Below the pieces are notes generated by a model. It did no database searches, had not been told where the DNA came from, and was given only the letters and a program-made list of their open reading frames with translations. This document shows, in pieces, positions 1,233 through 35,635 of a stretch of 64,000 nt of DNA. This DNA comes from an uncultured virus (IMG/VR IMGVR_UViG_3300028840_004051). Taxonomy: Duplodnaviria > Heunggongvirae > Uroviricota > Caudoviricetes. The stretch lies in IMG/VR virus record IMGVR_UViG_3300028840_004051; one strand, written 5' to 3'. A program made the translations under genes and the position numbers. Each line of letters begins with the position of its first letter. The first letter of the stretch is position 1.

Positions 1233-1237
1233 CCACT

Positions 1238-1576
1238 ATGCCATTTAAAACATTCATCGTCATAAAGACACAATTTGAAGCCATACACAATTGGCCTGAT
1301 TGTGGTATTGAATCTGTAAGCTACCTGCGGAATCCACATAGACACATTTTTCATGTTGAGATGAAGTGGATTGTTGAGGGTTTAAATCGTGATATTGAAT
1401 TCATCGACCAAAAGCATAAAGTTGATGATTTTATCCATAAAAAATTGGCATATAAAAATATTGGTGCAATGAGTTGTGAGATGATCGCGTCAAGATTGAT
1501 GACAAAATTCAATGCTCGCTTCGTGAGTGTTTTTGAAGATGGCGAAAATGGTGCAGAGATATGTATGACTACATAA
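1238..1576 (+). CDS. QueD/6-pyruvoyl-tetrahydropterin synthase-like T-fold protein
   Basis: FEAIH...HRHIFHV...SCEMIA...VSVFED pattern, adjacent to folE. Confidence 0.7.
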   Translation: MPFKTFIVIKTQFEAIHNWPDCGIESVSYLRNPHRHIFHVEMKWIVEGLNRDIEFIDQKHKVDDFIHKKLAYKNIGAMSCEMIASRLMTKFNARFVSVFEDGENGAEICMTT

Positions 1577-2856: not shown

Positions 2857-3884
2857 CCATTTGGAATGTCCCAATAGAAAGTCTTGAGGAAAGGTACAGC
2901 TCGCAATGGGGACGCTGGTTTCATATTGAATTCACAAGGCTTGGCATCGAATATAGAGCCATTCCTGGCATTCGTCTGACAGACAAAATAACCAAAGGTT
3001 CATTTCTTGATATATGTGGAACAAATTATTTCAAAGCGAACCAACTCAAGGTAATATCTTCATTGATGTTTGAAGGGCAAGTAAAAGACGGTGATATTTT
3101 TCTGTTTCATGACCTATGGTTCCCAGGCATTGAGATGTTGGCTTATATGAGAGATGGGCTTGGAATCGATTTCAAGATATGCGGAATACTTCATGCAGGC
3201 ACTTATGATCCGTATGATTTTCTTTCAAAGAAAGGAATGGCGAAGTGGGGGGAGAAATTAGAGGAATCATGGTTCAGAATAGCTGATATGATATTTGTTG
3301 CTACTCAATGGCACCGACATCTATTATACAGTAACCGGATCGTAGAATGGGATAAAATAAAAGTGACAGGCTTACCTATTTATTTCGACTTTGCCCCTAA
3401 TGAATTACCAGAAAAAGAAAATATTATCGTGTTCCCGCATAGGTTAGATGAAGAAAAAAATCCTCAATTGTTCGATTTATTTCAGACAAGATTTCAAGAA
3501 GACAAATCAATCAAGGACTCATGGCAATTTTTAAAAACAATGGAGCATTGGAAGGGCAAAAAAGGTTATTATGATATGCTATCAAGATCGAAAATAGTTG
3601 TCAGCTTCGCCGACCAGGAAACGTGGGGAATAGCTATGCAAGAAGCCCTCTTTCTTGGTTGCTTCCCAGTCATCCCAGATCGCCTGAGTTACACTGAAAT
3701 GTATGAGCCTATGTTTAGATACTCTTCCTATGCTGAAGCCATGACTCTGATTAAATATGGCATGGAGAAGTATGAATCAAAAGAGGTACAAGATACAATA
3801 AGGCTAAATAAAGAAAAGCTTATAGGCGAAGGAAAAGATGCAATAAGGAGGATGATATGCGAGATGGAAATGATGAGAAAATAG
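2853..3884 (+). CDS. GT-B (GT4-like) glycosyltransferase
   Basis: HRLDEEKNP and ETWGIAMQEA (E-x7-E) motifs, PDRLSYTE. Confidence 0.85.
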   Translation: MTIWNVPIESLEERYSSQWGRWFHIEFTRLGIEYRAIPGIRLTDKITKGSFLDICGTNYFKANQLKVISSLMFEGQVKDGDIFLFHDLWFPGIEMLAYMRDGLGIDFKICGILHAGTYDPYDFLSKKGMAKWGEKLEESWFRIADMIFVATQWHRHLLYSNRIVEWDKIKVTGLPIYFDFAPNELPEKENIIVFPHRLDEEKNPQLFDLFQTRFQEDKSIKDSWQFLKTMEHWKGKKGYYDMLSRSKIVVSFADQETWGIAMQEALFLGCFPVIPDRLSYTEMYEPMFRYSSYAEAMTLIKYGMEKYESKEVQDTIRLNKEKLIGEGKDAIRRMICEMEMMRK

Positions 3885-4966
3885 ACCTGTTTCTCGACTG
3901 CGGAGCGGTGTCAATTTATAACAAGTTGGTGCGGAAAGGTGGTAGAACAGAAAGTGGCGTCCATACAGGCGCATATTTCAAAGACCGCAAGCATGATGAT
4001 TTCAGCTACATACACACCAAAGAGTACCAGGAGTATAGAGACAGTTACATTGAATTTATCAAGAAAAATAAGAAACACCTAACCGTATACTCCAACCTTG
4101 ATGTGATCAATAATGCAGAGCTGACATGGGAAAATCAAAAGATAATGGAAGGCGAAGGATTATCGCCTATTCCAGTCTACCACATCAGCAACAAGCCTGG
4201 TGATACTAAGTGGTTAAAAAAGTACATTGACAAAGGGTATGATTACATCGCACTTGGCGGTGGTTATCCAAACCCGCCAAAGGAGACATTCACAATCTAT
4301 GATCGAATATGGAACGATATACTGACCGATGACAAAGGTATGCCAATCGTCAAAGTTCACGGCTATGCAGTCACTAGCCTTAAAACTATGTTAAGATACC
4401 CTTGGTATTCGGTTGACTCAACCAGTTGGGTTATGACTGCAAGAATGGGAAGTATTTATATTCCAAAATCTAAAAATGGAAAATATATCTATGATATTGA
4501 TCCATTTAAAATATTAGTTTCTAATCGCAGCCCAAGACTATGTGACAGCCAATGGCATATTGCACACATAAGCCGGCAGAATAAAGAACTTCATAAATAT
4601 ATATTGGATTATTTTGACTTCAAAGGATTCATACTAGGTGAAAGCGATTTTAAGGTCGTTGACGACAGTTACAAGCCAGACAAGAATGAAAGATTGATGC
4701 CAAACGATGTCATAAAAAAATGGAGGATGATGGGAGACAAATCAAATGAGATCATAAAAGATAAATTCAATGTTCTCCCTAGCGATGGAGAAAAAATGGT
4801 TGAAATAATAAAAAGCCCAGGGCTCTGCAATAGTTATATATCAAGAGATGAGGCTTGTATCATATACTTCACCAATCTTCAAAATGCACTGCCTGAATGG
4901 CCCACTCCATTTAAACTAAAAAAGAAAACAAAATCAAAAGGATTATTTAAGGTATACAAGACATGA
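3857..4966 (+). CDS. TGT/DpdA-like TIM-barrel base-exchange protein
   Basis: FLDCGA, NLDVI, PVYH, IALGG, VHGYA, SVDSTSW motifs; context of folE/queD-like genes. Confidence 0.65.
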   Translation: MRDGNDEKIDLFLDCGAVSIYNKLVRKGGRTESGVHTGAYFKDRKHDDFSYIHTKEYQEYRDSYIEFIKKNKKHLTVYSNLDVINNAELTWENQKIMEGEGLSPIPVYHISNKPGDTKWLKKYIDKGYDYIALGGGYPNPPKETFTIYDRIWNDILTDDKGMPIVKVHGYAVTSLKTMLRYPWYSVDSTSWVMTARMGSIYIPKSKNGKYIYDIDPFKILVSNRSPRLCDSQWHIAHISRQNKELHKYILDYFDFKGFILGESDFKVVDDSYKPDKNERLMPNDVIKKWRMMGDKSNEIIKDKFNVLPSDGEKMVEIIKSPGLCNSYISRDEACIIYFTNLQNALPEWPTPFKLKKKTKSKGLFKVYKT

Positions 4967-9563: not shown

Positions 9564-12500
9564 ATGAAGAATAAAGACTTCTGCCACCTTCATGTCCACA
9601 ATGAATACAGCCTTCTTGACGGCTATGGAGACGCTAAGCAGTATATCTCAAGAGTAAAGGAGATGGGATTCAGATATATTGCCTTAACTAATCATGGCAA
9701 TATTGATGGTTGCTTAAAATGGCAAGATGAATGTGACAAACAAGGTATCCGCCCGGTGCTTGGCTCTGAACTCTATATCTGCCAGAATACCAAAGTAAAG
9801 AGCAAAGCGGTAGGGCATATCGTCATACTTGTGAAGAATGAACTCGGGTGGGTAGAGTTATGTAAGCTAATTACAAGGGCACATATTGAGGGGTATCATA
9901 AACGGCCGAGAGCAGACTATGAAATGATCCTTGGCTGTGATATGTCAGGATGGGTAGTAATGACTGCCTGTATAGGGTCTTTCCTTAACTTAGATGGAGG
10001 AGTGGAGTTAGCGAAAGAGATAAAAGATAGGACTGATTTATACTTTGAAATTATGCCACCAAATATGGCAAGCCAATTAAAATATCATGCGAAGTGGTCG
10101 GCGTTGGATTTTGTTGGTGAGTTGCCACTGGTAGCGACGGTTGATTGCCATTACCCCAATGCTGATGATGTTAATATACAAGATGTCCTCCTCGCCATTC
10201 AACGAAATAAAAAATGGAGTGACTCAGACCGTTGGTCATTTGACTTCCGAGAACTATATCTCCAGAGCGCAGCGGAGATCTATAATAGTTTTAGAGATAA
10301 TGGGCAGTTTACGATAGAAGAAATCAAGTCTGCGATGGCTAATACGATTAAGATTGCCCGCAAATGCTGCCAATTCAGAATAAAAAAGAAGACCCCTCAT
10401 CTCCCTATACCATTGAAGTACAAAAGCGACTATGACAAGCAACCAACCCAAGAATACGCTGACGCCTACATCAGCCAGACCCTTGATGATCTAATCAATG
10501 AGGGGCTTAGAGTAAGAGGATTTGACGATAATAAAACCTACATTGAAAGGGTTGATAGGGAGATTAAAACTATAGCATCGAAAGGATTTGAGCTATATTT
10601 CTTAGTTGTAAAGGATGTGGTTGATTGGTGTAAAGAAAACGATATAATGGTTGGTCCAGGCAGGGGGAGTGTTGGCGGTTGCTTGATAGCTTACTTATTA
10701 GGAATAACTGAAATTGATCCCATTAAATATAAGCTACCTTTCAGCCGTTTTATAAAAGAGGATCGAATTGATCTGCCTGATATCGATGTTGATTTCGAGA
10801 GGATGAAAAGACCAGAAGTTATTCAGTACCTCAGGGAGAAATACGGTAGGTATAATACAGCGAGTATATCAACCTTTGGCGTCCTACATGCAAGAGGTTG
10901 TATTAGAGAGATTGGCCGTGTGTTTGAGTTACCATATACTGACATTGATAAATTTGCAAAGTCAGTACCTTATATAGGCACAGATGAAGATACGATTCCA
11001 AACGCACTAAAGGATTCAAAGAGCGAGGCCTCACGCTTTCAATCTCTATACCCAAAAGAGACTGATGATATACTGAAGCTCTCCGGTCAGATAAAGAATA
11101 GAGGGCAACATGCAGCGGCAATAGTAGTATCAAATGATGATTTAAGAAATGGCGAAAGGTGTACTCTGCTTCTTAATAAAGATGGAGAGCCGATAATAAA
11201 CTGGGATATGAATGATGCCGAATTTAACGGTCTACTAAAGATTGATATCCTTGGCCTAAGTACTTTATCAATTCTCAATTATGCAAGAGAATTGATAAAT
11301 AAAAGTCAAGAAGATATTCCATCGTTTTGGTATCATCCAGAATCAGAATGTTATTTTGCAGATAGAGATGTTTTCTCTGAACGAGTATCTGAAGTTCAGC
11401 TTGATAATATTGATTTCAACTATGACAAAATCAATCTTGATGATAAAGATGTTTTCAATCTGATTAATAGTGGTAAGACCGCTGGCATATTCCAGATACA
11501 ATCATGGGCAACTACAAATCTCTGCCAGGATATAGAAATTGAATCATTTGAGGATATATGTGCTGCGGTAGCTCTCGTCCGCCCTGGCGCCACTAAAAGC
11601 GGAATGACTGAGAAATATATCGAAAGAAAGCATGGCAAGGAATGGGCTAAGAAGCACCCAATCTATGAAGAGTTAACAAAAGATACCTATGGTATTCTTG
11701 CTTATCAAGAACAGGTGATGCAGGTAATCAGCCGCATCGCTGGGCTCTCTGAAACCCACGCCGATAATATCCGAAAGATAATAGCTAAGAAACATGATAC
11801 TAATGCATTCAGTAAACATAAGAAAGATTTTATGGAGGGATGTAATAGAACAAAAAACTTCAATCGTGATGAGGCAGAGGAATTCTGGCGAGGGTTATTA
11901 GAATGGGGAGCCTATGGATTTAATAGAGCACATTCGGTTGCCTATGCGCTGATTGGTTACTGGACGGCATGGATTAAATACTATTACCCGAAACAGTTCT
12001 ACTGTGCCTCTCTAACATATGGTGATGATGACGATGATTATCATAAAAGCAAACAAAGGCTGATCGATGAAATACTACAAAGTGGATGGAAGATATTGCC
12101 GCCTAAAGTCTGCTTATCTGATGCCCTAAAGTGGACCTTTAATGGGGATACTTTCTATACTCCATTTACTGAATTAAAAGGGGTGGCTGAGGCAAATGCC
12201 ATTAAATGTGCAGACCGAAAGCAGAAGAAAGCCTGTCGAGGGCTATTTAATGTTAAGGTTGAGGTTCAGAATCAAACAAAACTCGATAAGACACTTAGCA
12301 GCATAAGGGCATGGGATGAAGAGGTGATCCCAGATGATATCGATGATTATTTGGAATTTAATATGCTTGATTCGGTTAAAGACACCTACACTAATCTTGT
12401 AAAGTTGCTTGGATATGATACGAACACTGGCTCCATAGAGGCTGCAAAGTCACTAACCATGAGACATAGGCTTAATTTCTTTCCTTATGAAATTATTAAA

Positions 12501-13052
12501 AGGAAACGATGGCATGTGAATGAAGTAGTAGAATGTGAGCTGTGTGATCTTGCTAACGAGTGCTTAAGCCCGATTGTTACATCAAAAGGAGTCTATAATG
12601 TCTTCATTAATGCCGAGGCGCCAGGAAGGGATGAGGATACAGAAAGAAAAAACCTTGTCGGCAGAGCAGGTCAATTACTATGGGATGAGATAGCAAGATA
12701 TGGTTATACAAGAAGGCATTTTCATATCTCAAACACTAATCGCTGCTATCCAAAGAAAACAAAGACTCCAACAAAAGAACAAGTTGATACCTGCTTCCCT
12801 TGGACCATAAGGGAGCTGAAAGAAACAGAATGTAGACTGGTTCTTGGGATAGGGAATAATACATTGTTTGCTATAACAGGAAGAGATAAGGGTATTATGA
12901 AGCTAAGTGGGGAGACGGAATGGATCGAGGAACTTGGTTTATGGGTCTGTTGGTGCATTCATCCCTCCGCTGTCCTCAGGCAGCAATCAAACCGTGAGTA
13001 TTTCGAGAAAGGTATAAAGAACTTTATTGAAAAGTTTGAATTATTGAGATGA
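9564..13052 (+). CDS. dnaE: DNA polymerase III alpha subunit with C-terminal uracil-DNA-glycosylase family 4-like domain
   Basis: PHP HLHVHNEYSLLDG, GPGRGS, PDIDVDF, KIDILGL, YGFNRAH; C-terminal EAPG...VGRAG...HPSAVLR. Confidence 0.93.
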   Translation: MKNKDFCHLHVHNEYSLLDGYGDAKQYISRVKEMGFRYIALTNHGNIDGCLKWQDECDKQGIRPVLGSELYICQNTKVKSKAVGHIVILVKNELGWVELCKLITRAHIEGYHKRPRADYEMILGCDMSGWVVMTACIGSFLNLDGGVELAKEIKDRTDLYFEIMPPNMASQLKYHAKWSALDFVGELPLVATVDCHYPNADDVNIQDVLLAIQRNKKWSDSDRWSFDFRELYLQSAAEIYNSFRDNGQFTIEEIKSAMANTIKIARKCCQFRIKKKTPHLPIPLKYKSDYDKQPTQEYADAYISQTLDDLINEGLRVRGFDDNKTYIERVDREIKTIASKGFELYFLVVKDVVDWCKENDIMVGPGRGSVGGCLIAYLLGITEIDPIKYKLPFSRFIKEDRIDLPDIDVDFERMKRPEVIQYLREKYGRYNTASISTFGVLHARGCIREIGRVFELPYTDIDKFAKSVPYIGTDEDTIPNALKDSKSEASRFQSLYPKETDDILKLSGQIKNRGQHAAAIVVSNDDLRNGERCTLLLNKDGEPIINWDMNDAEFNGLLKIDILGLSTLSILNYARELINKSQEDIPSFWYHPESECYFADRDVFSERVSEVQLDNIDFNYDKINLDDKDVFNLINSGKTAGIFQIQSWATTNLCQDIEIESFEDICAAVALVRPGATKSGMTEKYIERKHGKEWAKKHPIYEELTKDTYGILAYQEQVMQVISRIAGLSETHADNIRKIIAKKHDTNAFSKHKKDFMEGCNRTKNFNRDEAEEFWRGLLEWGAYGFNRAHSVAYALIGYWTAWIKYYYPKQFYCASLTYGDDDDDYHKSKQRLIDEILQSGWKILPPKVCLSDALKWTFNGDTFYTPFTELKGVAEANAIKCADRKQKKACRGLFNVKVEVQNQTKLDKTLSSIRAWDEEVIPDDIDDYLEFNMLDSVKDTYTNLVKLLGYDTNTGSIEAAKSLTMRHRLNFFPYEIIKRKRWHVNEVVECELCDLANECLSPIVTSKGVYNVFINAEAPGRDEDTERKNLVGRAGQLLWDEIARYGYTRRHFHISNTNRCYPKKTKTPTKEQVDTCFPWTIRELKETECRLVLGIGNNTLFAITGRDKGIMKLSGETEWIEELGLWVCWCIHPSAVLRQQSNREYFEKGIKNFIEKFELLR

Positions 13053-18238: not shown

Positions 18239-18586
18239 TTGAAAATATATCTTGCAATACCCTATACAGGACAAGAATCGGAATCATTTGAATATGTAAA
18301 TAAAATTGCTTGTAAGCTTATGAATCAAGGCTATATCGTTTTCAGCCCGATTTCTCATACTCATCCAATAGCATGTTGTGGCAACTTACCAAAAGATTGG
18401 GAATTTTGGAAAAAACAAGATGAATGCTTTATTGAATGGTGTGATCAATTATGGGTATGTGATTTTGGTGATTGGCAAACATCAAAAGGCGTTCGTGCTG
18501 AGATTGAGATAGCAAAAAGTCTAAAAAAGCCAGTAATTCATATTAAATCGATCAAGAAAAAATTTAAGATCTATGAAAAAAAGTAA
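18239..18586 (+). CDS. DUF1937/nucleoside 2-deoxyribosyltransferase-like protein
   Basis: IYLAIPY, FSPISHTH, SKGVRAEIEIA. Confidence 0.75.
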   Translation: MKIYLAIPYTGQESESFEYVNKIACKLMNQGYIVFSPISHTHPIACCGNLPKDWEFWKKQDECFIEWCDQLWVCDFGDWQTSKGVRAEIEIAKSLKKPVIHIKSIKKKFKIYEKK

Positions 18587-18929
18587 ATGCAATAACTTTT
18601 CTAAATGTGGTAATTATCAGTCATATACAGCATTAGGTCTATGCCCTAAATGTTATCGAGATAAAAAAGGATATGCTACAAAAGCATATCAGATAGCAAG
18701 AAGAATCAATAAAGAAGCAAGAATAAGAAAGGCAATGGAGAAAGAAAATATGAGTGAAGAAGAAATTGTAATGCCTTGGGGACAGCATAAGGGGCGGCGT
18801 TTGCATACTCTCTCCAGCCATTATCTAAAGTGGTTGGCTGAGAATTGTGAATGGGATGATAAAATAATGCTTGCTGCTGATGAAGAGTATCAGTGGAGAG
18901 AACGTAATAATGAACATAAGGATGATTAA
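18573..18929 (+). CDS. zinc-finger + DUF3820-like protein
   Basis: CxxC pairs; MPWGQHKG...YLKWL. Confidence 0.6.
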   Translation: MKKSKCNNFSKCGNYQSYTALGLCPKCYRDKKGYATKAYQIARRINKEARIRKAMEKENMSEEEIVMPWGQHKGRRLHTLSSHYLKWLAENCEWDDKIMLAADEEYQWRERNNEHKDD

Positions 18930-25200: not shown

Positions 25201-26556
25201 ATGCCAAAACTTGCAATAAAAGGTGGTCTTAAAGTTAGAAATAACCCTTTCCCGAATATGTCAACAATAGGCCAAAGTGAGTTGAATGCAGCGAGAAGGG
25301 TTATATTGACAGGAAATTTATCAGGTTTCAGAGGCAATTCAGGCCCAGGGTTTCAAGGTGGTCCCGAAGTAAGAGCACTTGAAAAGGAATGGGAAAAGAA
25401 ATTTGGAGTTAAACATGCTATCGCCGTCAACTCCTGTACATCGGGGTTGCATATTGCTTGCATAGCCATTGATTTAAAACCAGGTGATGAAGTAATTGTG
25501 ACTCCATGGTCGATGTCATGTAGTGCGACAGCGCCTATGATATGTGGGGCTATTCCAATCTTCGCTGACATTGAAGAGGATTATTATTGCCTTGATCCTC
25601 AATCGATAAGGGATAGAATAAGTGCAAGAACCAAAGCAATTATAGTAGTTGACTTATTTGGGCAGCCACATGATTATTCAGAAATACGAAAAATAGCCGA
25701 CGAATATAGTCTATCTATAATTGAGGATGCTGCACAAGCCATCGGATCATACTACGGTAAAAGAAGTACAGGAACGCTTGGAGATATCGGCGTTTATTCC
25801 TTCACTCAAGGGAAGCATATTACCTGCGGTGAAGGTGGTATGATCGTAACAAATGATGATAAATTAGCGATGTCTTGTATGTTGCTAAGAAATCATGCCG
25901 AGGCGGTTGAAAATGATTTGATTGGTTCAAAACCAAATTATAAAAAATATACTCTCCCTACATTTGATCACAATCTATTTGGATTCAACATGAGAATGAC
26001 AGAGATACAGGCCGCCATACTGAGAGAGCAACTCAAGTATTTAGATGGCGTTGTAGAAAAGCATCAGAAATCAGAACAATTCATAAGTGATAATCTAAGC
26101 CATCTAGATTATATTATCAAGTTTCCTAAAGTCAGACCTTACTCAACACATTCTTATTATGTTCAAGCTTTAAAATGGAGAACTGAAAATAAACATACTG
26201 AAGGAATACACCGCGATCAATATATTGAAGCAGTCAGGGCGGAGTTATCGCATGAAGAAGGTAGAGCTATTGAAGGCGTCCCGATCAGCTACGGATACAT
26301 AAAACCTCTTTACTTATTTCCTATATTCCAAAACTACCAAGATAAGTTAGACATCTATAAAAATGAGTATGAAAAAATCAGAAGGAGGCGTATAAAGGAG
26401 AATTATACACAAGGCAGTTGCCCTGTAGCTGAAAGATTATGGAAGAATGAAATAATTATAAACAGGCTGGTTGGAATGAATCTAATGGTTAGTGATCTTA
26501 AGGATGTCGTTAATGCATTCATTAAGGTTTGGGAGAATAGGGATGAATTAAGGTAA
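25201..26556 (+). CDS. DegT/DnrJ/EryC1/StrS sugar aminotransferase (PseC-like role)
   Basis: NSCTSGLH, IEDAAQA, SFTQGKHITCGEGG, NMRMTE. Confidence 0.92.
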   Translation: MPKLAIKGGLKVRNNPFPNMSTIGQSELNAARRVILTGNLSGFRGNSGPGFQGGPEVRALEKEWEKKFGVKHAIAVNSCTSGLHIACIAIDLKPGDEVIVTPWSMSCSATAPMICGAIPIFADIEEDYYCLDPQSIRDRISARTKAIIVVDLFGQPHDYSEIRKIADEYSLSIIEDAAQAIGSYYGKRSTGTLGDIGVYSFTQGKHITCGEGGMIVTNDDKLAMSCMLLRNHAEAVENDLIGSKPNYKKYTLPTFDHNLFGFNMRMTEIQAAILREQLKYLDGVVEKHQKSEQFISDNLSHLDYIIKFPKVRPYSTHSYYVQALKWRTENKHTEGIHRDQYIEAVRAELSHEEGRAIEGVPISYGYIKPLYLFPIFQNYQDKLDIYKNEYEKIRRRRIKENYTQGSCPVAERLWKNEIIINRLVGMNLMVSDLKDVVNAFIKVWENRDELR

Positions 26557-26736
26557 GGAATATGAAAACAAAAAATATAGATAAAATCATTCTTGTAGTT
26601 ATCGGGTTTAATATAGCCGTTAATATACATCAAGGAAATTGGCAGGCGGCGCTTGGATGGTTTATCGCCTCTCTTACTATTATTAGATTGCTTTTCTTTT
26701 ATAAAGAGAAATAAAAAATTAATAAGGATCAGTAAA

Positions 26737-27597
26737 ATGATACCATTTATAGCAGATATTGGAAGCAACCATAATCAAAGTCTCACAAGGGCTAAAAATC
26801 TTATTTTAGCTGCAAAAGAGAGTGGTTGTTGGGGAGTTAAGTTTCAGCTTTTTAAAGCCGAACAGCTATGGAGAGATAAGACAGTAGCAGGAAGGATGAA
26901 GCATTGGGAATTGCCAGAAGAGTTCATTCCTGAGCTTTCAAGTTTTTGTAAAGCGCTTGATATAGCCTTCGGCTGCACACCTTTCTACTTAAAAGCTGTC
27001 GATATACTCAAAGATCATGTTGACTTTTTAAAGGTTGGTTCATACGAATTACTCTGGCTTGATTTAATCAGGAAGTGTGCAAAAACTGATAAGAAGCTTA
27101 TCCTATCGACTGGCATGGGATCATTTGTTGAGATACTTAATGCAATGTCAGCCGCCATTGTGCATTGTAAATCAGGATGTAATGATGATGATAACGTCTT
27201 AGGTTCTATATCAGTCCTGCATTGTAATTCGACCTATCCTGCCAACCTTGAAGATTGCAATATGGCACAGATAGAAGTGCTTAGAAATCAATTTCGGAGA
27301 TCAGTTGGATGGAGTGATCATACCACTGAGCCAGGGGTAATTTATTCTGCCATTTCATATGGTGCCTCAATAATTGAATTTCATTTGGATTTAGAAGATA
27401 AGCAAGGGGTCGAATCTAGAAGCGGCCATTGCTGGAAACCAAGTAAAATTGAATGTGTTATAAATAATATAAGCAACTGGTTGAAGACTGAATATTTCAG
27501 TAAAACCAGTTTAACACAAAAAATAGAGGAGCTAAGAAAGTCAAGAACTGACCCAACTGATGGAATGAGGCCATTGAAGAATGTCAAATCTACATAA
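26737..27597 (+). CDS. N-acetylneuraminate/pseudaminate synthase family (NeuB/PseI)
   Basis: IADIGSNH, VKFQ, LKVGS, ILSTGM, LHCNSTYP, GWSDHT, IEFH; start reassigned to ATG 26737. Confidence 0.9.
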   Translation: MIPFIADIGSNHNQSLTRAKNLILAAKESGCWGVKFQLFKAEQLWRDKTVAGRMKHWELPEEFIPELSSFCKALDIAFGCTPFYLKAVDILKDHVDFLKVGSYELLWLDLIRKCAKTDKKLILSTGMGSFVEILNAMSAAIVHCKSGCNDDDNVLGSISVLHCNSTYPANLEDCNMAQIEVLRNQFRRSVGWSDHTTEPGVIYSAISYGASIIEFHLDLEDKQGVESRSGHCWKPSKIECVINNISNWLKTEYFSKTSLTQKIEELRKSRTDPTDGMRPLKNVKST

Positions 27598-28564
27598 TGC
27601 CGAAATATTAATAACAGGCGGGACAGGTAGCCTTGGGCTAACCCTTGTAAAAACCCTTGTAAAATATCATTCAGAAATAAAAGGGATACGAGTCTTTTCA
27701 AGAGACGAACTGAAGCAATGGCTGATGAAGCAGGAGATCAACGTATGGTGTATCAAAAATAAGCTCTATGTGCCGATCTCTTATTTGGTGGGTGATGTAA
27801 GAGATATCAAAAGGCTTAAGATTGCGATGAGAGGGGTCACCCATGTCATCCATGCTGCTGCCATGAAGCAAGTCCCTGCCTGTGAAGAAAACCCTCTTGA
27901 AGCGATTAAGACAAATATAGGCGGTGCAGAGAACATATTAGAAGCCGCTCTTTCATGTGACTCAATCGAGAAGGTTTTAGGCATAAGTACTGATAAGGCA
28001 ATATACCCTATAAATCTCTACGGGGTTACGAAAGCCGCGATGGAAAAGTTATTCATCCAAGGCAACGTTTACAGTAAAGGACATGAGAGAAAACCAAGAT
28101 TCAGTTGCTGCCGATATGGGAACGTTATAGGAAGCAGAGGAAGTGTGATTCCTTTATTTAAAAGTCAATATGATAGAAATCAAGAGATAACCGTTACCGA
28201 TTTGAAAATGACAAGGTTTTGGATTACCCGGCCAGCCGCTGCTCGCTTTGTAATAAATAGATTGATGTATATGGAGGGTGGTGAGATATTCGTCCCTAAA
28301 ATGCCAAGTTGTAGGGTTGTCGATCTTGCCAGAATGCTTATCCCTGATGTCCCTATAAAATATGTAGGGATAAGGAAAGGAGAGAAGATTCATGAATGGC
28401 TGATAACAACTGAGGAGAGCAGCGATTTATTAGAGTTAGGTAAAAGCTATGTAATCTCTTCAAGATATCAAAACAAGCATAAGAAGTTCGCTTATAACAG
28501 CCTTAGTAATGAACGGATTTTGAAAAAAGATGAATTCCATAAAATGTTAATAGAAGAAGTATAG
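27581..28564 (+). CDS. pseB: UDP-GlcNAc 4,6-dehydratase (PseB/FlaA1-like)
   Basis: ITGGTGSLG, SRDELKQ, HAAAMKQVP, STDKA, YGNVIGSRGSV, MTRFW, GEKIHE. Confidence 0.88.
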   Translation: MSNLHNAEILITGGTGSLGLTLVKTLVKYHSEIKGIRVFSRDELKQWLMKQEINVWCIKNKLYVPISYLVGDVRDIKRLKIAMRGVTHVIHAAAMKQVPACEENPLEAIKTNIGGAENILEAALSCDSIEKVLGISTDKAIYPINLYGVTKAAMEKLFIQGNVYSKGHERKPRFSCCRYGNVIGSRGSVIPLFKSQYDRNQEITVTDLKMTRFWITRPAAARFVINRLMYMEGGEIFVPKMPSCRVVDLARMLIPDVPIKYVGIRKGEKIHEWLITTEESSDLLELGKSYVISSRYQNKHKKFAYNSLSNERILKKDEFHKMLIEEV

Positions 28565-28573
28565 GAGAAAAAA

Positions 28574-28831
28574 ATGAAAGTATTTATGTTGATTTTAGCA
28601 AGTTTAATTTTTGTATCAGTATCCAATGCAGGTGAAATATGGGATGCATTTATATCTCAGAAACCCGCACCAATGCGTCACTGCTATGGTTGTCAAGAAG
28701 ATAGACGGGTGCAACAGGTCGAATCACAGTTTCAAAACAAAAATAATCGATTTGATTCTGGTGAGACTGATTCCGATGGATATGAAGGAAGTGATCCAAT
28801 AGACCCCGAAGGAACTGAACCAAGGTTTTAA
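28574..28831 (+). CDS. small secreted hypothetical protein
   Basis: N-terminal signal-peptide-like stretch; AGGAG RBS. Confidence 0.55.
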   Translation: MKVFMLILASLIFVSVSNAGEIWDAFISQKPAPMRHCYGCQEDRRVQQVESQFQNKNNRFDSGETDSDGYEGSDPIDPEGTEPRF

Positions 28832-28834
28832 TAA

Positions 28835-29401
28835 ATGAATAAAATATATGAAACAGATGATCTCATATTCGTTCCTTTCTTCAATATCAATCTAAAAAAT
28901 AGCAATTACTATGCTTGGATGCATGATCAGGAAGTCACCAGATATAACTCACATGGCCTCTTCCCTTATACAAAGAAAGAGGAGGATGAATGGCGTCAGG
29001 CGATTATAGATAATAAAATCATCGCCTGGGCAATAGTGAAGAAAATAGGCCCAAAAGAATTAGCCGGGCATCCTGTTAAGAGGACAGAGATGATCCATAT
29101 AGGTAATGTCAGTCTTCAGAGTTTCAACTGGATTAATCGAAGTGCTGAAATCGCCATCGTAATTGGCGAGAAGCAATACTGGGGTAAGGGATATGCGACT
29201 AAAGCATTCGATATAATGATAAGTCATGGATTCATGAAATTGAATCTTCACAGGATATGGTCTGGAACGGCTTCTATTAATAACGGGATGATTAGGGTAT
29301 TTGAAAAAGTAGGAATGCAATACGAAGGAACCTTTAGGGATGGAACTTTTCTTAATGGCCGTTATGTTGATGTTGTCTGCTATGCAGCGATTCAGGTGTA
29401 G
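28835..29401 (+). CDS. GNAT (RimJ/RimL-like) N-acetyltransferase, PseH-like role
   Basis: HIGNV, AEIAIVIGEKQYWGKGYA, LNLHRI, EGTFR. Confidence 0.85.
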   Translation: MNKIYETDDLIFVPFFNINLKNSNYYAWMHDQEVTRYNSHGLFPYTKKEEDEWRQAIIDNKIIAWAIVKKIGPKELAGHPVKRTEMIHIGNVSLQSFNWINRSAEIAIVIGEKQYWGKGYATKAFDIMISHGFMKLNLHRIWSGTASINNGMIRVFEKVGMQYEGTFRDGTFLNGRYVDVVCYAAIQV

Positions 29402-30956: not shown

Positions 30957-31143
30957 ATCATCAAACCAAAATCAAATATTAAACGAGATAGAAGCCATCC
31001 GTTCCTCGAATAATTCTAACTGGATGAGGATTATAAGAATCGCTCTCAAGCATGATAAAGAAGAAACTATAAAACTTCTTAAGAACATAGTTGAAATGGA
31101 CGGAAGAATAAAGTCAGAAATGGAGAAACTAATTAATGAATAG
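30949..31143 (+). CDS. small helical protein
   Basis: IEAIRSSNNSNWM pattern; overlaps neighbours. Confidence 0.6.
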   Translation: MNKSSNQNQILNEIEAIRSSNNSNWMRIIRIALKHDKEETIKLLKNIVEMDGRIKSEMEKLINE

Positions 31144-34048
31144 GAAAAGGCTTAGTGTAAATCTAAAATCAATTATGGATATAAACCCATCCTTGTATAG
31201 CTGGATAGATAAGCAGGAAGAGGTTGATTGGGTTAGAGAAATCAAAAGTGATGATGGCCTCCCAAATCTTCTTATTTCAATTGGAAACAAGACAATCGCT
31301 GCATATAAAATGAGGGGTGCGAAGATAGAGGCTTTTCGTGCGGCGAAGAAAATGAAACTTTATAAGGAGAATGTCAGCATATTAATAGGTTTCGGCCTTG
31401 GGTATATGGCAAGGGCGATGCTTGATAAAATGGAGAAAGGGCATCATGTCATAGTCATTGAACCAGTCGGTCATGTGCTGAGACTTGGGCTATCTAATTT
31501 TGACTTCTCAAAAGAGATAAGAAATTTTGAATTAATCATCGTCGAACCAAACCCAAAAGAAATAGCAGCCGCCTTTGGTATACTTGATAATAGTTACATC
31601 GTTAATGATTGGTTGGTAACAATCAATAAGTATACCAAGCTGAGGCCAGATGAATATGGCGAATCAATGAAGTTAGTTCTCGATATCCTGAATCAGATCA
31701 TGTGTTCCATTGGTACGATAGCTGGAGGGGCAGGAGCGAAGATAGCTGATAATGATATTGCTTGTCTTCCTTATGTTATCCGTCATAGAGGAGTAGCTGA
31801 ACTGAAAGATATATTCAAGGATAAACCAGCAATACTTGTCAGCACCGGGCCAAGCCTTGCTAAAAATATTCATCAATTAATCGATATCAGCAAAGAAAAT
31901 AAAGCCGTAATAATTGCAGTTGGACAAGCCCTCAGAATTCTACTCGCCTACGATATTAAACCTGACTTCATCTGCACGGTTGATTTTGGTGAGGTCAACA
32001 TGGGGCATTTTACAGGTCTTATGAATTCAGATGTCCCACTCGTTACAATCAATAGAGCCTATGCTCCTTTACTGAAATCATGGCAAGGGCCAAAGTTCAT
32101 CGTCTCTACTCCGGTGCCAGGGTTTGAGAAAACCGCCGCTGGCATACTAACTAATAAAGGCAGTCTTGAGGCAGGTGGTAGTGTTGCACATCTCTGCTTT
32201 ACATTTGCACAATCACTTGGTTGTGATCCAATAACGTTAATTGGTCAGGATTTGGCTCTATCAAATACATCTCATATTCCCTTGGCTGATGCCTCCGGCA
32301 AAATTCAAATATCGGAGAACGGACAGATAGGTTGGAAGGTAAGCGATCATCGCTGCCATCTTCACAATGAAAAAGATGAAGTTTATGGTATGGGGCCAGT
32401 CCATCAAGTCCCAGGTTACTATGGTAAGCCTGTGATAACAAACCTGGGGCTCGCTTCATTTATAACGAGCTTTGAAGCGATGGCAAGCAAGTGCGAGGCA
32501 AAAGTAATCAATGCAACCGAGGGCGGAGCAGATATCCGCAATACTGAAAAGATGATGCTCAAAGAAGTCATAAATCAATACTGCAAAGAAAAGATCGACA
32601 AAACAGAATTAGAAAAGTTGAAAACTCTTGCTGATGATGGTGATGATCTTATTGAAAAAGTCATCCCCTTACTTGAAAAGGATATTGATAATCTCAATGA
32701 GGTGATAAGTCAAGGTAGAAAAGGGCTGGCAAGCGCAAGAGGATTAGCGACACTTATGAGTCGTAATAATTATAAAGCTCTTCTTAACAAAAAAAATAAG
32801 GTATTCCTAAACAAACTATTAAAAGAAAGTAAGAGTGAGTCAGAAGTCGATAGAATAAATATGAATATAATATTCTTTGAGAAATTAGTTAATCAGTTAA
32901 GAAAATCAAAATTAAAGAATATAGTCCTTCTAACTCAGAAAAATTTCGTGCATTCAGAAAATACGAGGATAGCAGCGACAAAGAATCCTCTTGTCAACGT
33001 CGCCATATATGGAGCGAGTAGAAGAATATGGCAAAGGAAGCTTAAGGTTAATGAAAAGTTCGAGCACTTTTTAACCAATAGAAAAGATGCAATGACAAGG
33101 CTTGAAAGGAATAAATTAATCTTAAATGCCGCCGTCAGTGCTGCAAAAGAACTAAAGCCTACATATAAGAAAACCCTAAAGCTGCTTAAGAAATATAATA
33201 AGAAAAAAGATGATAGTTTGCTGGTTGATAGAACACCCGAACTAATGGACCTCAGTGATGCAGATAGTTATTTTGATGCTGATAACTGGGCACATCCATT
33301 GGTTGACGCGAAGAGATGTATTGATAAAATGCTGTTACTATCCAATGCCAAGCCATCAATATGTAACAAACCATTTGATGAAGTGAAGGCAATCTATAAA
33401 AAAGCTCTCACTATGAGAGAAGAAGCGATAGAGAAAGCAAAAAAAGAAGAGTATGATAATTGGGAAGAAAGAAAGAAAATTCTTGAATATAATCGCCTGA
33501 TAAAAGAAAGTAGAGAAGCTGGTAAGAATGATCAAGACTTTAGCAAAGCAGTTGAGATCCTTGAGGAGGCGAAAGAATTATTTCCAGATAATCCTGAAGC
33601 TAAGTGGGGCTTAGCCACTGCCCTACATCATTCGGGTCGATTTGATGAATCATTATCTATGTATCGAGAACTGATAAAGGAATCGCCTGATAATAACAGA
33701 TACAAATTTGAGATGGGCCAGGTGCTACTTAAGACGGGGCAAACAAAGGAGGGATTAGATACATTGAAAGAGGCGATGGAATCAACCAGCGAATTCGATG
33801 GTGCCCTGGCAAATATTGGACAGATATATGAACACGCTGGAATGAATAAAGATGCCCTTAGAGCTTATAATCTTTACCTGAAAAAGTTCCCAGCGGACTA
33901 TGAAGTCTTGAATATGAAAGCAGTATGCCTTTCGAAGTTGAAGAGATATGGGCAGGCCATTAAAGTATTAAAAGCCTGTCTGAAAATAAAGCCGGATTTT
34001 AAGCAGGCAAAAGAAAACTTGCAAGTATTAAAGCGGCGTGGAATATAG
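31136..34048 (+). CDS. Maf/DUF115 (motility-associated factor, MptE-like) glycosyltransferase with C-terminal TPR repeats
   Basis: GFGLGY, STGPSL, IKPDF, GGSVAH, LIGQDLA, INATEGGA; TPRs in the C-terminal ~180 aa. Confidence 0.85.
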   Translation: MNRKRLSVNLKSIMDINPSLYSWIDKQEEVDWVREIKSDDGLPNLLISIGNKTIAAYKMRGAKIEAFRAAKKMKLYKENVSILIGFGLGYMARAMLDKMEKGHHVIVIEPVGHVLRLGLSNFDFSKEIRNFELIIVEPNPKEIAAAFGILDNSYIVNDWLVTINKYTKLRPDEYGESMKLVLDILNQIMCSIGTIAGGAGAKIADNDIACLPYVIRHRGVAELKDIFKDKPAILVSTGPSLAKNIHQLIDISKENKAVIIAVGQALRILLAYDIKPDFICTVDFGEVNMGHFTGLMNSDVPLVTINRAYAPLLKSWQGPKFIVSTPVPGFEKTAAGILTNKGSLEAGGSVAHLCFTFAQSLGCDPITLIGQDLALSNTSHIPLADASGKIQISENGQIGWKVSDHRCHLHNEKDEVYGMGPVHQVPGYYGKPVITNLGLASFITSFEAMASKCEAKVINATEGGADIRNTEKMMLKEVINQYCKEKIDKTELEKLKTLADDGDDLIEKVIPLLEKDIDNLNEVISQGRKGLASARGLATLMSRNNYKALLNKKNKVFLNKLLKESKSESEVDRINMNIIFFEKLVNQLRKSKLKNIVLLTQKNFVHSENTRIAATKNPLVNVAIYGASRRIWQRKLKVNEKFEHFLTNRKDAMTRLERNKLILNAAVSAAKELKPTYKKTLKLLKKYNKKKDDSLLVDRTPELMDLSDADSYFDADNWAHPLVDAKRCIDKMLLLSNAKPSICNKPFDEVKAIYKKALTMREEAIEKAKKEEYDNWEERKKILEYNRLIKESREAGKNDQDFSKAVEILEEAKELFPDNPEAKWGLATALHHSGRFDESLSMYRELIKESPDNNRYKFEMGQVLLKTGQTKEGLDTLKEAMESTSEFDGALANIGQIYEHAGMNKDALRAYNLYLKKFPADYEVLNMKAVCLSKLKRYGQAIKVLKACLKIKPDFKQAKENLQVLKRRGI

Positions 34049-34050
34049 CT

Positions 34051-34110
34051 TAAAACGCTGTCATTTAGCCGAGATTAGGTTTTCTTTTTAAATTAATACC
34101 TAAGTATATT
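34051..34110 (-). repeat. dispersed structured intergenic repeat, copy 4 (degenerate)
   Basis: reverse strand has GGTATTA...TAATCTCGGCTAAATGACAGCG. Confidence 0.7.
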
Positions 34111-34113
34111 CTT

Positions 34114-34145
34114 AATAAAAAAATCGCGTGATCGCTTATAATATA
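34114..34145 (+). promoter_or_regulatory. putative promoter for the TIGR array
   Basis: AATAAAAAAATC...CTTATAATATA, a few nt before first repeat. Confidence 0.6.
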
Positions 34146-34151
34146 ATAAAA

Positions 34152-34440
34152 AAGTCACTCGATATAAGAAACCCACAAAGTGGAAGCGAGCCATGGGTTT
34201 TAAGAAACCCACCATCATCAAGCGAGCCACCAGCCGCAAGAAATCCAAGAAGTAAAAGCGAGCCATGAGGTCGAAGAAACCCAGAACCGTAAAGCGAGCC
34301 AATCCAAAAAAGAAAACCAGAAAAGTTAAGCGAGCCAACGGTTTAAAGAAACCCATATCCGCCAAGCGAGCCATGATGCGTAAGAAACCCACAGGTAAAA
34401 AGCGAGTCAAAAAGCCGAAGAAACCCAAGAAAGCTAAGCG
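34152..34440 (+). ncRNA. TIGR-like array 1: eight 36-nt units
   Basis: alternating AAGCGAGCCA (edge) and AAGAAACCCA (loop) repeats separated by 8 variable nt; begins with half-repeat AAGTCA and ends with AAGCG. Confidence 0.92.
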
Positions 34441-34470
34441 TTAACTAACTACAAAAAAGGAATGTAACCA

Positions 34471-35397
34471 ATGAAAAAAGAAATCAAAAGAATGGCAAGA
34501 AAAAGAACAGATGAGGTATTCCCTGAAAACGATTCACTATTTGATACTCATAGGTTAATACCGAAAAGAAAAAATGGCACATACACGGATGAAAATACGG
34601 TAATCAAAATGCCGATTGATCATCAAATTGAGCATGGGACATTTAAGCAGAGAGAAAGTGAATTTGAAAAATTAAAAAGCCTATTTGATGATAGACAAAG
34701 TTTAATGAAGTCACGGATGAAAATAGATAATGCACTACTGGCATATAAAAGGGGAACAGATGTTCCTACGATTGAAATGATAAAATTTTATGAAGAGAAA
34801 ATCAAAGAATTTGTGAAGTTTGAAAATAAGAGAAAAGGGGAAATCGAAAAGCAGCTAGAAAAAATAAACCATCCTGTCGCAAACGCCATGAGGGAGGTCG
34901 ATCAGGTTGGTCCGGTTATCGCAGCAGGTTGTATTATTTATTTAGACATTAAAAAAGCACGCCATCCGAGTAGTTTTTGGAAATATTGTGGATTGGATAA
35001 ACCATTTTTTAGTAGGTATGAAAAAGGCAAGTCCAGCGGGGGCAATAAAAAATTAAGAACTGTTTTATATAATATGGCAAAATGTCAGGAAATGTGTTTA
35101 ACGGCACCTTATAGACCAGTATACGATAATAAAAAACAAAAACTTGCGCAAAGTGAAAAAATCTGCGAGCAGACAAGAGGTACGGATGGGAAGATTAAAA
35201 AAAATGTAAAGTGGAAAGATGTAAAGCCATGTCATCGTCGAGGTGCAGCATTACGAGAAGTTATGAAACATTTCTTAGCGGATTTACACTATGTATGGTG
35301 CTGTATTGAGGGGATTGAGCCTTCGAAGCCATATGCCGAAGCACAACTTGGAAAACATAAAACTATTATGCCAGAAGAAAGAGGGTGGATTTTTTAA
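34471..35397 (+). CDS. tasH: TasH-like RNA-guided nuclease (N-terminal HNH + coiled coil + Nop/IS110-like RNA-binding domain)
   Basis: DTHRLIP...GTY...N...DHQIEH HNH motif; VGPVIAA, SSFWKYCGL, GGNKKLRTVLY Nop/IS110-like motifs; flanked by dual-repeat arrays. Confidence 0.85.
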   Translation: MKKEIKRMARKRTDEVFPENDSLFDTHRLIPKRKNGTYTDENTVIKMPIDHQIEHGTFKQRESEFEKLKSLFDDRQSLMKSRMKIDNALLAYKRGTDVPTIEMIKFYEEKIKEFVKFENKRKGEIEKQLEKINHPVANAMREVDQVGPVIAAGCIIYLDIKKARHPSSFWKYCGLDKPFFSRYEKGKSSGGNKKLRTVLYNMAKCQEMCLTAPYRPVYDNKKQKLAQSEKICEQTRGTDGKIKKNVKWKDVKPCHRRGAALREVMKHFLADLHYVWCCIEGIEPSKPYAEAQLGKHKTIMPEERGWIF

Positions 35398-35400
35398 TTA

Positions 35401-35626
35401 AAGCGAGCCATCCTATCTAAGAAATCCAAAAGCATAAAGCGAGCCACCAGCATCAAGAAACCCATGATGCAGAAGCGAGCCATTGACCGCAAGAAACCCA
35501 GGAAGTAAAAGCGAGCCATGTTTATCAAGAAACCCAGTATCGAGAAGCGAGCCATCTGATTGAAGAAACCCATTAAGTTTAAGCGAGCCAGCGCTGTTAA
35601 GAAACCCAGAAGGTAAAAGCGAGTTA
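35401..35626 (+). ncRNA. TIGR-like array 2: six 36-nt units
   Basis: same two repeats and period, starts 3 nt after the tas stop codon. Confidence 0.92.
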
Positions 35627-35635
35627 TCAAATATT

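What the first reader, a model, noticed from the sequence alone, without database searches (positions are those of the whole stretch)
34114..35626. RNA-guided TIGR-Tas (TasH-like) locus: HNH-Nop protein between two 36-nt dual-repeat arrays
Seen: exact 36-nt period with two alternating 10-nt repeats (AAGCGAGCCA, AAGAAACCCA) separated by 8 variable nt; 8 units upstream (34152-34440) and 6 downstream (35401-35626) of one 308-aa gene. The protein has an N-terminal HNH-like motif (THRLIP...N...H...H, no Zn cysteines) and a Nop/IS110-like C-terminal domain but no DEDD RuvC. Known: this matches TIGR arrays (edge repeat, spacer A, loop repeat, spacer B; CCA box-C-like motif) processed to ~36-nt guides for Tas proteins. 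Inference: a phage-encoded, PAM-independent programmable nuclease with 14 guides, probably aimed at competing phages/MGEs. The arrays on both sides and the site at the convergence of the two genome halves are notable.
Basis: partly seen in the sequence, partly recalled or inferred. Interest (0 to 1): 0.95.

Follow-up and report, generated by a model that had tools for sequence, protein, structure and literature searches.

The report
Phage TIGR-TasH guide-RNA nuclease locus
This is a genuine TIGR-TasH system, a small RNA-guided DNA-cutting protein flanked by 14 two-part guide RNAs in a tailed phage genome, but this kind of system was described in 2025 and this exact protein is already listed in the published catalogue.

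Summary
Two arrays with an exact 36-nt period (34153-34440, 8 units; 35406-35621, 6 units) flank a 308-aa gene (34471-35397). They alternate an edge repeat AAGCGAGCCA and a loop repeat AAGAAACCCA around 8-nt spacers. Both motifs occur only in the arrays within the 64 kb.

The protein matches the solved Salicola phage CGphi29 TasH (E 5e-65; model TM 0.89 to 9w04). It keeps the nuclease His (H51, equivalent to Sp H54) and the Tyr/His RNA-processing pair (Y288, H296). CGphi29's own array has the same edge repeat.

All 51 viral relatives fetched carry such arrays, and 27 of the 51 have them on both sides. The flanking layout is therefore ordinary.

The identical 308-aa sequence appears three times in Table S1 of Faure et al. 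2025. The scan has also reported TIGR loci on other DNA before.

I found no natural target. The self-target, cross-locus and viral-collection searches all stayed at background.

The parts
34137..34147 (+). Possible promoter -10: two overlapping TATAAT hexamers, 6 nt upstream of the first (truncated) edge repeat; no recognisable -35
   Evidence: Read from the sequence. The consensus scan called no + strand promoter here, so this is inference only.
34153..34440 (+). Upstream TIGR array: 8 units of 36 nt (U1-U8). Each unit is a 3' half of the edge repeat, spacer A (8 nt), loop repeat AAGAAACCCA, spacer B (8 nt) and a 5' half of the edge repeat. The array starts with a 5'-truncated edge and ends with a 3'-truncated edge.
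   Evidence: truncated ends as described for TIGR arrays in Faure 2025
34457..34462 (+). Shine-Dalgarno-like AAGGAA, 8 nt before the tasH start codon
   Evidence: Read from the sequence
34471..35397 (+). tasH gene, 308 aa. N-terminal HNH domain (D25, H27, R28, N42, H51, H55), coiled-coil, and a Nop domain carrying the Y288/H296 processing loop.
   Evidence: PDB TasH E 5e-65; 39% identity to the CGphi29 protein; AF2 pLDDT 91.3; Foldseek TM 0.89 to 9w04_B; residue conservation in 41 sequences
35401..35626 (+). Downstream TIGR array. A full edge repeat lies 3 nt after the stop codon, then 6 units (D1-D6, 35406-35621) and a degenerate terminal edge (AAGCGAGTTA). No intrinsic terminator was found after it.
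   Evidence: terminator scan

Best explanation
This is a phage-encoded dual-repeat TIGR-TasH system.

Inferred: array 1, tasH and array 2 are transcribed on the + strand, probably as one unit.

Inferred by homology with SpTasH, where the steps were shown experimentally:
- A TasH dimer binds the AAG...CCA motifs (box D / box C) of the edge and loop repeats.
- Its C-terminal Tyr/His loop (Y288, H296) cuts inside each edge repeat without metal. This releases fourteen 36-nt tigRNAs of the form AGCCA-spacerA(8)-AAGAAACCCA-spacerB(8)-AAGCG.
- Each RNP recognises a 16-bp DNA site without a PAM. Spacer A pairs with one strand and spacer B with the other, so the site reads 5'-[spacer A][0-2 bp][reverse complement of spacer B]-3'.
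- The two HNH domains (H51 is the equivalent of SpTasH H54) cut both strands, leaving staggered 3' overhangs.

The biological role is not shown. Competition with other mobile elements, or action on host DNA, is the most likely (about even odds).
For: Protein:
- phmmer against the PDB gives TasH of Salicola phage CGphi29, E 5e-65 over residues 22-306. TasR is next at 1.9e-10.
- The AF2 model has pLDDT 91.3. It superposes on TasH-tigRNA-dsDNA 9w04_B with TM 0.89 over 310 columns. TasR 9mty and the IS621 recombinases follow.
- Sp H54 (H54A is nuclease-dead; Guan preprint) aligns with H51, which is kept in 38 of 41 relatives.
- N42, R28 and Y288 are kept in 41 of 41.
- Sp Y289 and H296 are the pre-tigRNA processing residues (Zhou 2026, section read). 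Y288 aligns with Y289. H296 aligns with the His of 25 of 41 relatives. The other 16, of the SpTasH type, carry the His at the alignment column of our K295.

Arrays:
- 36-nt units, 8-nt spacers and 10-nt repeats match what Faure reports for SpTIGR, 16 variable nt per unit.
- The CGphi29 array has the identical edge repeat AAGCGAGCCA.
- Both repeats begin AAG and end CCA, and the loop repeat is A-rich, as in the TasR structure description.
- All 51 IMG/VR relatives have 36-nt arrays next to the gene.
- Edge positions 4 and 7 covary across locus consensuses: C-G in 29, T-A in 17, T-T in 7. My detection pattern allowed only C/T at position 4 and A/G/T at position 7.

Catalogue: the identical sequence is in Faure's Table S1.

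Context: myovirus structural and replication modules.
Against: No experiment bears on this locus itself.
- The protein lacks 7 residues near the N-terminus that most of the 40 aligned relatives have, a G-x-C-x-x-S/T stretch before the HNH core. An effect on cutting cannot be excluded.
- The processing His sits one residue later than in SpTasH.
- No canonical promoter or intrinsic terminator was found. Faure describes a terminator after typical arrays.
- No target was found for any guide.
  - In the window, the only near-match is unit D1 at 18681-18698 on the minus strand, with 1 mismatch and a 2-bp gap. At least one such hit occurred in 23 of 300 shuffled guide sets.
  - No spacer pair is shared with 356 distinct guides of the other loci within 3 of 16 mismatches.
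  - Exact scans of the viral collection for two guides gave 75 and 59 scattered hits in 80 unrelated clusters.
Confidence: 0.9

Rival explanations
1. The same TIGR-Tas machinery acts here mainly as an RNA-guided DNA binder or transcriptional repressor rather than as a cutter. This could be because the shortened HNH N-terminus weakens catalysis, or because cleavage is intrinsically slow.
For: Nuclease-dead SpTasH H54A represses a GFP reporter, and wild-type SpTasH cuts at only about 0.01 per min (Guan preprint, section read). Dead TasR and TasA act as repressors (Xu preprint, abstract and discussion). Our protein lacks 7 N-terminal residues found in relatives.
Against: H51, H55, N42, R28 and D25 are all kept. 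The model's HNH region is confident, with pLDDT 81-88 and the strand-strand-helix elements present. The only near self-match in the window is at chance level, so there is no sign of self-regulation.
Confidence: 0.07
2. The locus is a decaying, non-functional relic of a TIGR-TasH system.
For: No terminator or canonical promoter was detected. The terminal edge repeats are degenerate. No targets were found.
Against: The reading frame is intact, with all tested functional residues kept. 12 of 14 full edge and 11 of 14 loop copies are exact, and the phase is perfect over 14 units. The locus and 1.5 kb on each side are identical, base for base, in a second viral record. Truncated end repeats are the described norm.
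Confidence: 0.02
3. The gene is an IS110-type transposase (the PHROG and Pfam labels), or the arrays are protein-coding repeats. The 36-nt period equals 12 codons, so several frames stay open through the arrays.
For: PHROG 4285 'transposase' scores E 1.4e-25. Pfam Transposase_20 scores 21.9 bits against a cut-off of 21.3. ORFs of 111, 59 and 78 aa run through the arrays.
Against: There is no DEDD/RuvC domain, and the N-terminus is HNH. The match to TasH is about 55 orders of magnitude better than to TasR or IS110-type chains. Only the 8-nt blocks vary and the repeats are fixed, which is an RNA-array pattern. The CGphi29 record also annotates a CDS over its array, and that array is processed into tigRNAs.
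Confidence: 0.01

Closest known systems
SpTIGR-TasH of Salicola phage CGphi29 (Faure et al. 2025, PMC12045711; Zhou et al. 2026, PMC13421893; PDB 9w03, 9w04, 9vzx, 21kl)
   Same: Same domain order (HNH, coiled-coil, Nop with Y/H loop), 39% identity and TM 0.89. The units are 36 nt with 8-nt spacers, the edge repeat AAGCGAGCCA is identical, and the carrier is a phage.
   Different: The loop repeat is AAGAAACCCA rather than AAGACAACCA. Arrays lie on both sides, whereas I found one only downstream in CGphi29. Position 27 is His rather than Asp (22 of 41 relatives have His). The protein is 7 residues shorter before the HNH core. The processing His is shifted by one residue. No terminator follows the array. 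The locus lies between the replication and tail modules rather than inside the head module.
TaTasR / ParTasR (TIGR-TasR, PDB 9mty)
   Same: Nop-domain dimer, 36-nt dual-spacer tigRNA, and box C (CCA) at repeat ends.
   Different: TasR has a RuvC nuclease instead of HNH, 9-nt spacers and a UG box D. Sequence match is E 1.9e-10 and TM 0.54 only.
IS110/IS621 bridge-RNA recombinases (PDB 8wt6, 8wt9)
   Same: Related RNA-binding Nop-like domain. This explains the Pfam Transposase_20 and PHROG 'transposase' labels.
   Different: The locus has no DEDD/RuvC domain, no single bridge RNA and no transposon ends. TM is about 0.47.
Archaeal box C/D sRNP Nop5
   Same: Nop fold, and a dimer holding a two-guide RNA by box C/D motifs (paper text). 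The fold hit to 1nt2_B is weak.
   Different: Nop5 guides RNA methylation through fibrillarin and L7Ae. It has no nuclease and no tandem arrays of this kind.
CRISPR-Cas arrays
   Same: Arrays of repeats and variable guides next to an effector gene, processed into unit guides.
   Different: Here there are two alternating 10-nt repeats, split 8+8-nt spacers that read both DNA strands, no PAM and no adaptation genes.

Membership tests
TIGR-TasH (dual-repeat) | Tas protein with a Nop domain | tested here: met
   PDB TasH E 5e-65. Foldseek gives TM 0.89 to 9w04_B over the full length, with TasR and IS621 next.
TIGR-TasH (dual-repeat) | N-terminal HNH nuclease domain with the catalytic His (SpTasH H54) | tested here: met
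   H51 aligns with Sp H54 and is kept in 38 of 41 relatives. N42 and R28 are kept in 41 of 41. A 7-residue N-terminal deletion relative to most relatives is noted.
TIGR-TasH (dual-repeat) | [quoted passage not shown] | tested here: met
   8 + 6 units in exact phase, 10-nt repeats and 8-nt spacers. This fits the layout in Faure 2025.
TIGR-TasH (dual-repeat) | Box D / box C motifs shared by edge and loop repeats; A-rich loop repeat; paired positions inside the edge repeat | tested here: met
   Both repeats are AAG....CCA, and the loop core is AAAC. Edge positions 4/7 are C-G here and covary to T-A in 17 of 53 locus consensuses (conditioned on my search pattern).
TIGR-TasH (dual-repeat) | C-terminal Tyr/His processing loop | tested here: met
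   Y288 is kept in 41 of 41. H296 aligns with the His of 25 of 41, and the other 16 have it at the alignment column of our K295, as in SpTasH.
TIGR-TasH (dual-repeat) | [quoted passage not shown] | tested here: inconclusive
   Truncated edges are present on the upstream array (34153, 34436-34440). The downstream array ends in a degenerate edge, and no terminator was called.
TIGR-TasH (dual-repeat) | Processing into 36-nt tigRNAs, and guide-dependent cleavage of both DNA strands | not testable with these tools
   No RNA run is listed for the stretch, and biochemistry is not available. This feature is inferred from SpTasH.
TIGR-TasH (dual-repeat) | Listed in the published Tas catalogue | tested here: met
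   The identical 308-aa sequence occurs in 3 rows of Table S1 (ProteinInfo sheet) of Faure 2025, forming one 50%-identity node of its own.
IS110 transposase | N-terminal DEDD (RuvC-like) domain plus a C-terminal Transposase_20 domain | tested here: not met
   Only Transposase_20 is hit, at 21.9 bits against a cut-off of 21.3. There is no DEDD domain hit, and the N-terminus is HNH.

The most novel reading that the evidence does not exclude
Array 1, tasH and array 2 may be one transcript on which TasH regulates itself.

Its own Tyr/His RNase would cut the full edge repeat that starts 3 nt after its stop codon, stripping the mRNA of any 3' structure.

The last upstream unit (U8) ends in a truncated edge that should not be cut. 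It would stay fused to the 5' leader, about 16 nt upstream of the ribosome-binding site (34457-34462), so a bound TasH dimer could hinder translation.

With arrays on both sides in 27 of 51 relatives, this would be a general feedback loop of TIGR-TasH loci.

A full-text search for 'tigRNA' together with 'autoregulat' found one paper. I did not check its passage on this point. Xu et al. say only that co-transcription is unresolved.
Probability: 0.2. Interest if true: 0.4.

Novelty: already known. Interest (0 to 1): 0.12.

Why it matters
It matters little as a discovery. TIGR-Tas was published in 2025, TasH has solved structures, and this exact protein is in the published catalogue.

Its modest value is as a clean example.
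- It is an intact TasH with the commonest repeat pair of the clade (edge type in 23 of 53 locus consensuses, loop type in 15 of 53).
- It has 14 guides and sits in a large, otherwise uncharacterised myovirus.
- Its protein is no more than 52% identical to any other sequence found.

The open questions it shares with the whole family are what the guides target and how arrays gain spacers. Neither was advanced here.

Tried and rejected
1. blastn of the locus against 50,697 phage records found no match.
2. The search for related loci with the single protein gave one distant locus only. The alignment-based scan was needed.
3. Target geometry. The supplement of Zhou 2026 holds no oligo sequences. 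I derived the geometry from Faure's 'C-5 rule' plus the 8-nt 3' overhangs. The other order (reverse complement of B, then A) gave one 1-mismatch hit, unit U2 at 50535. I set it aside as the wrong geometry.
4. Self-targets in the window. With at most 1 mismatch there is 1 hit, against a null mean of 0.083, and at least one hit in 23 of 300 shuffles. With at most 2 mismatches there are 2 hits against a null mean of 1.96. Only about half of the genome is in hand.
5. Paralogous guides. The predicted targets of U3 and D3 differ at 5 of 16 positions and share a central 11-bp block. A minimum distance of 5 or less arose in 104 of 2000 shuffles, which is marginal.
6. Exact scans of the viral collection for the U3 and D3 sites gave 75 and 59 hits in 80 clusters, with no homology between the two sets. 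I read this as background. The other 12 guides were not scanned.
7. No guide is shared with 356 distinct guides from the 52 other loci within 3 mismatches.
8. Rfam gave no match. No tRNA was found in the window.
9. No RNA holder is listed for the stretch.
10. Laying the contigs of two DNA runs did not lay the main contig. Only short pieces of other contigs matched, so nothing can be said on array variants.
11. The window's own assembly is not held. The nearest viral record adds no sequence beyond the window, judging from its length and the position of the gene.
12. Host. The nearest cultured-phage matches are 33% (DNA polymerase) and 42% (capsid) identical, across unrelated hosts, so no host could be inferred.

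Full report
OBSERVATION

Upstream of a 308-aa ORF (34471-35397, + strand) lie 8 units of exactly 36 nt (34153-34440). Downstream lie 6 more (35406-35621).

Each unit reads: 3' half of an edge repeat (AGCCA), an 8-nt spacer A, the loop repeat AAGAAACCCA, an 8-nt spacer B, and the 5' half of the next edge repeat (AAGCG). The full edge repeat is AAGCGAGCCA.

- 12 of 14 full-length edge copies are exact.
- 11 of 14 loop copies are exact.
- The two 10-mers occur 12 and 11 times in the 64-kb window, only inside the arrays and only on the + strand. By my arithmetic about 0.1 of each is expected by chance.
- The upstream array opens with a 5'-truncated edge (AGTCA) and closes with a 3'-truncated edge (AAGCG). 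This is how Faure et al. describe TIGR array ends (section read).
- The downstream array opens with a full edge repeat 3 nt past the stop codon and closes with a degenerate edge (AAGCGAGTTA).

THE PROTEIN

Pfam gives only a borderline Transposase_20 hit (21.9 bits against 21.3), and PHROGs call it a 'transposase'.

Against the PDB, the best match is TasH of Salicola phage CGphi29 (8 entries, including 9vzx, 9w03 and 21kl). The E-value is 5e-65 over residues 22-306. TIGR-TasR (9mty) follows at 1.9e-10.

An AlphaFold2 model built on 41 sequences has mean pLDDT 91.3. It superposes on the TasH-tigRNA-dsDNA complex 9w04_B with TM 0.89 over 310 columns. TasR, the IS621/IS110 bridge-RNA recombinases and, weakly, Nop5 follow.

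Identity to the CGphi29 protein is 39%.

Functional residues:
- SpTasH H54A is nuclease-dead (Guan et al. preprint, sections read). H54 aligns with our H51, which is kept in 38 of 41 relatives.
- N42 and R28 are kept in 41 of 41, and H55 in 37 of 41.
- Position 27 is His here and in 22 of 41 relatives. It is Asp in 18, including the SpTasH type.
- SpTasH Y289 and H296 catalyse metal-independent pre-tigRNA processing (Zhou et al. 2026, section read). [quoted passage not shown]
- Our Y288 is invariant in the alignment. Our H296 aligns with the His of 25 of 41 relatives. The other 16 carry it at the alignment column of our K295, as SpTasH does.

Two departures from relatives: the protein lacks 7 residues (a G-x-C-x-x-S/T stretch) before the HNH core, and it has one residue fewer in the processing loop than its closest subgroup.

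Its nearest relatives in a 5.8-billion-protein collection are at most 52% identical.

THE ARRAYS COMPARED WITH RELATIVES

The CGphi29 array downstream of its tasH has the identical edge repeat AAGCGAGCCA and the loop repeat AAGACAACCA. Faure et al. state that SpTIGR has 16 variable nt per unit, which is the same layout as here.

I fetched 51 IMG/VR loci encoding relatives.
- All 51 have arrays with a 36-nt period and 8-nt spacers next to the gene.
- 27 have arrays on both sides, 22 downstream only and 2 upstream only.
- Among the 42 loci with full flanks the counts are 26, 15 and 1.

The flanking arrangement is therefore the commonest one. It is also stated in both papers.

Our repeat pair is the commonest too. 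The edge type is found in 23 of 53 locus consensuses and the loop type in 15 of 53. L017, whose protein is 47% identical, has the same pair.

Edge positions 4 and 7 are C-G in 29 consensuses, T-A in 17 and T-T in 7. This fits the extra edge-repeat base pair described for TasR. My detection pattern restricted those two positions, so the count is only indicative.

MECHANISM

Everything functional is inferred from SpTasH and TaTasR. The experimental findings there are:
- Tas-dependent processing into 36-nt RNAs that start and end in the middle of edge repeats.
- Spacer A pairing with one DNA strand and spacer B with the other, with 0-2 bp allowed between the two halves and no PAM.
- Cleavage 5' of the nucleotide paired to spacer base 5.

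That rule, combined with the reported 8-nt 3' overhangs, fixes the site as 5'-[spacer A][reverse complement of spacer B]-3'. This is my derivation.

A TATAAT doublet at 34137-34147 sits 6 nt before the first truncated edge. There is no clear -35, the consensus scan called no + strand promoter there, and it found no terminator after the second array. Transcription as one unit is plausible but not shown.

TARGETS

I found none.
- In the window, the only site within 1 mismatch in the derived geometry is for unit D1, at 18681-18698 on the minus strand, with a 2-bp gap. At least one such hit occurred in 23 of 300 shuffled guide sets.
- None of the 14 guides lies within 3 mismatches of any of 356 distinct guides from the other 52 loci. 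The two distinct guides at 4 mismatches compare with 0.38 pairs expected within 4 or fewer.
- Units U3 and D3 predict sites that differ at 5 of 16 positions around a shared central 11-bp block. Such closeness arose in 104 of 2000 shuffles.
- Exact scans of the viral collection for these two sites gave 75 and 59 hits that fall into 80 clusters, with no homology between the two sets.

Xu et al. likewise say that short spacers give many false target matches.

CONTEXT

The window is a tailed-phage genome.
- Replication and nucleotide-metabolism genes lie on the + strand up to 34048.
- Tail, baseplate, sheath, head and portal genes lie on the - strand from 35636.
- GC skew changes sign near the locus.

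The TIGR locus thus sits where the two gene blocks converge. A second viral record carries the locus and 1.5 kb on each side, identical base for base. Cultured phages are only distant relatives.

WHAT IS KNOWN ALREADY

TIGR-Tas was described in Faure et al. 2025. I read the abstract, six sections and the figure legends.

The identical 308-aa sequence stands in three rows of that paper's Table S1, ProteinInfo sheet, as a 50%-identity node of its own. One row has the same gene coordinates as the window. That file was cut when stored, so I cannot say whether the arrays are also listed.

The TIGRFinder/TIGRSafari annotations of Xu et al. are not public.

This scan has also reported several TIGR-Tas loci on other DNA.

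VERDICT

The locus is already known and of low interest.

The boldest reading I cannot exclude is self-regulation of tasH mRNA by TasH's own processing of the flanking arrays. I searched 'tigRNA' together with 'autoregulat': one paper holds both words, and I did not check its passage on this point.

Noticed in passing
window 25201-29401 and 31136-34048: A sugar-modification gene set sits just upstream of the TIGR locus: an aminotransferase, a nucleotide-sugar epimerase, a GNAT acetyltransferase, and a 970-aa protein with an MptE-like (Maf-type) domain plus TPR repeats. It looks like a nonulosonic-acid or glycosylation module carried by a phage.
   Followed up: partly
window 597-4966: GTP cyclohydrolase, a radical-SAM protein, a glycosyltransferase-like protein and a queuine tRNA-ribosyltransferase-like protein lie together. 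The set resembles the 7-deazaguanine DNA-modification genes of phages (recalled). Whether such modification bears on self versus non-self for TasH is unknown.
   Followed up: no
window 34093-34428 (-), 34265-34444 (+), 35394-35630 (-): ORFs of 111, 59 and 78 aa run through the arrays because the 36-nt period is 12 codons. They are almost certainly artefacts. The CGphi29 record annotates such a CDS over its own array (L001 2330-2530).
   Followed up: partly
window 34194-34201 (unit U2, spacer A): Spacer A of U2 (TGGGTTTT) is complementary to 7 nt of the loop repeat, so this unit could fold back on itself. The terminator scan picked up a neighbouring hairpin on the minus strand at 34184-34172.
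   Followed up: no
window 18681-18698 (-), inside ORF 18573-18929: This is a near self-match of guide D1, with 1 mismatch at spacer A position 2 and a 2-bp gap. Guan et al. report some mismatch tolerance at position 2 in SpTasH. It is at chance level here.
   Followed up: yes
viral-collection scans, loci L055-L188: For both 16-nt patterns, hits rise with gap length: 9, 26 and 40 for one and 5, 16 and 38 for the other, at gaps of 0, 1 and 2. Equal numbers are expected. Redundant contig families explain part of this, and the rest is unexplained.
   Followed up: partly
runs X1 and X2 laid on window 34344-34391: The same two metagenome runs hold other contigs (one of about 22 kb) whose loose ends carry the same edge and loop repeats with different spacers. 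Related TIGR arrays therefore co-occur in the community.
   Followed up: no
window 9564-13052: A DnaE-like DNA polymerase III alpha (1162 aa) lies in the phage. Its best cultured relatives are Streptomyces phages at about 32% identity. The catalogue row with the window's gene coordinates is labelled as coming from an archaeal genome set, which sits oddly with this bacterial-type polymerase. The host is unresolved.
   Followed up: no
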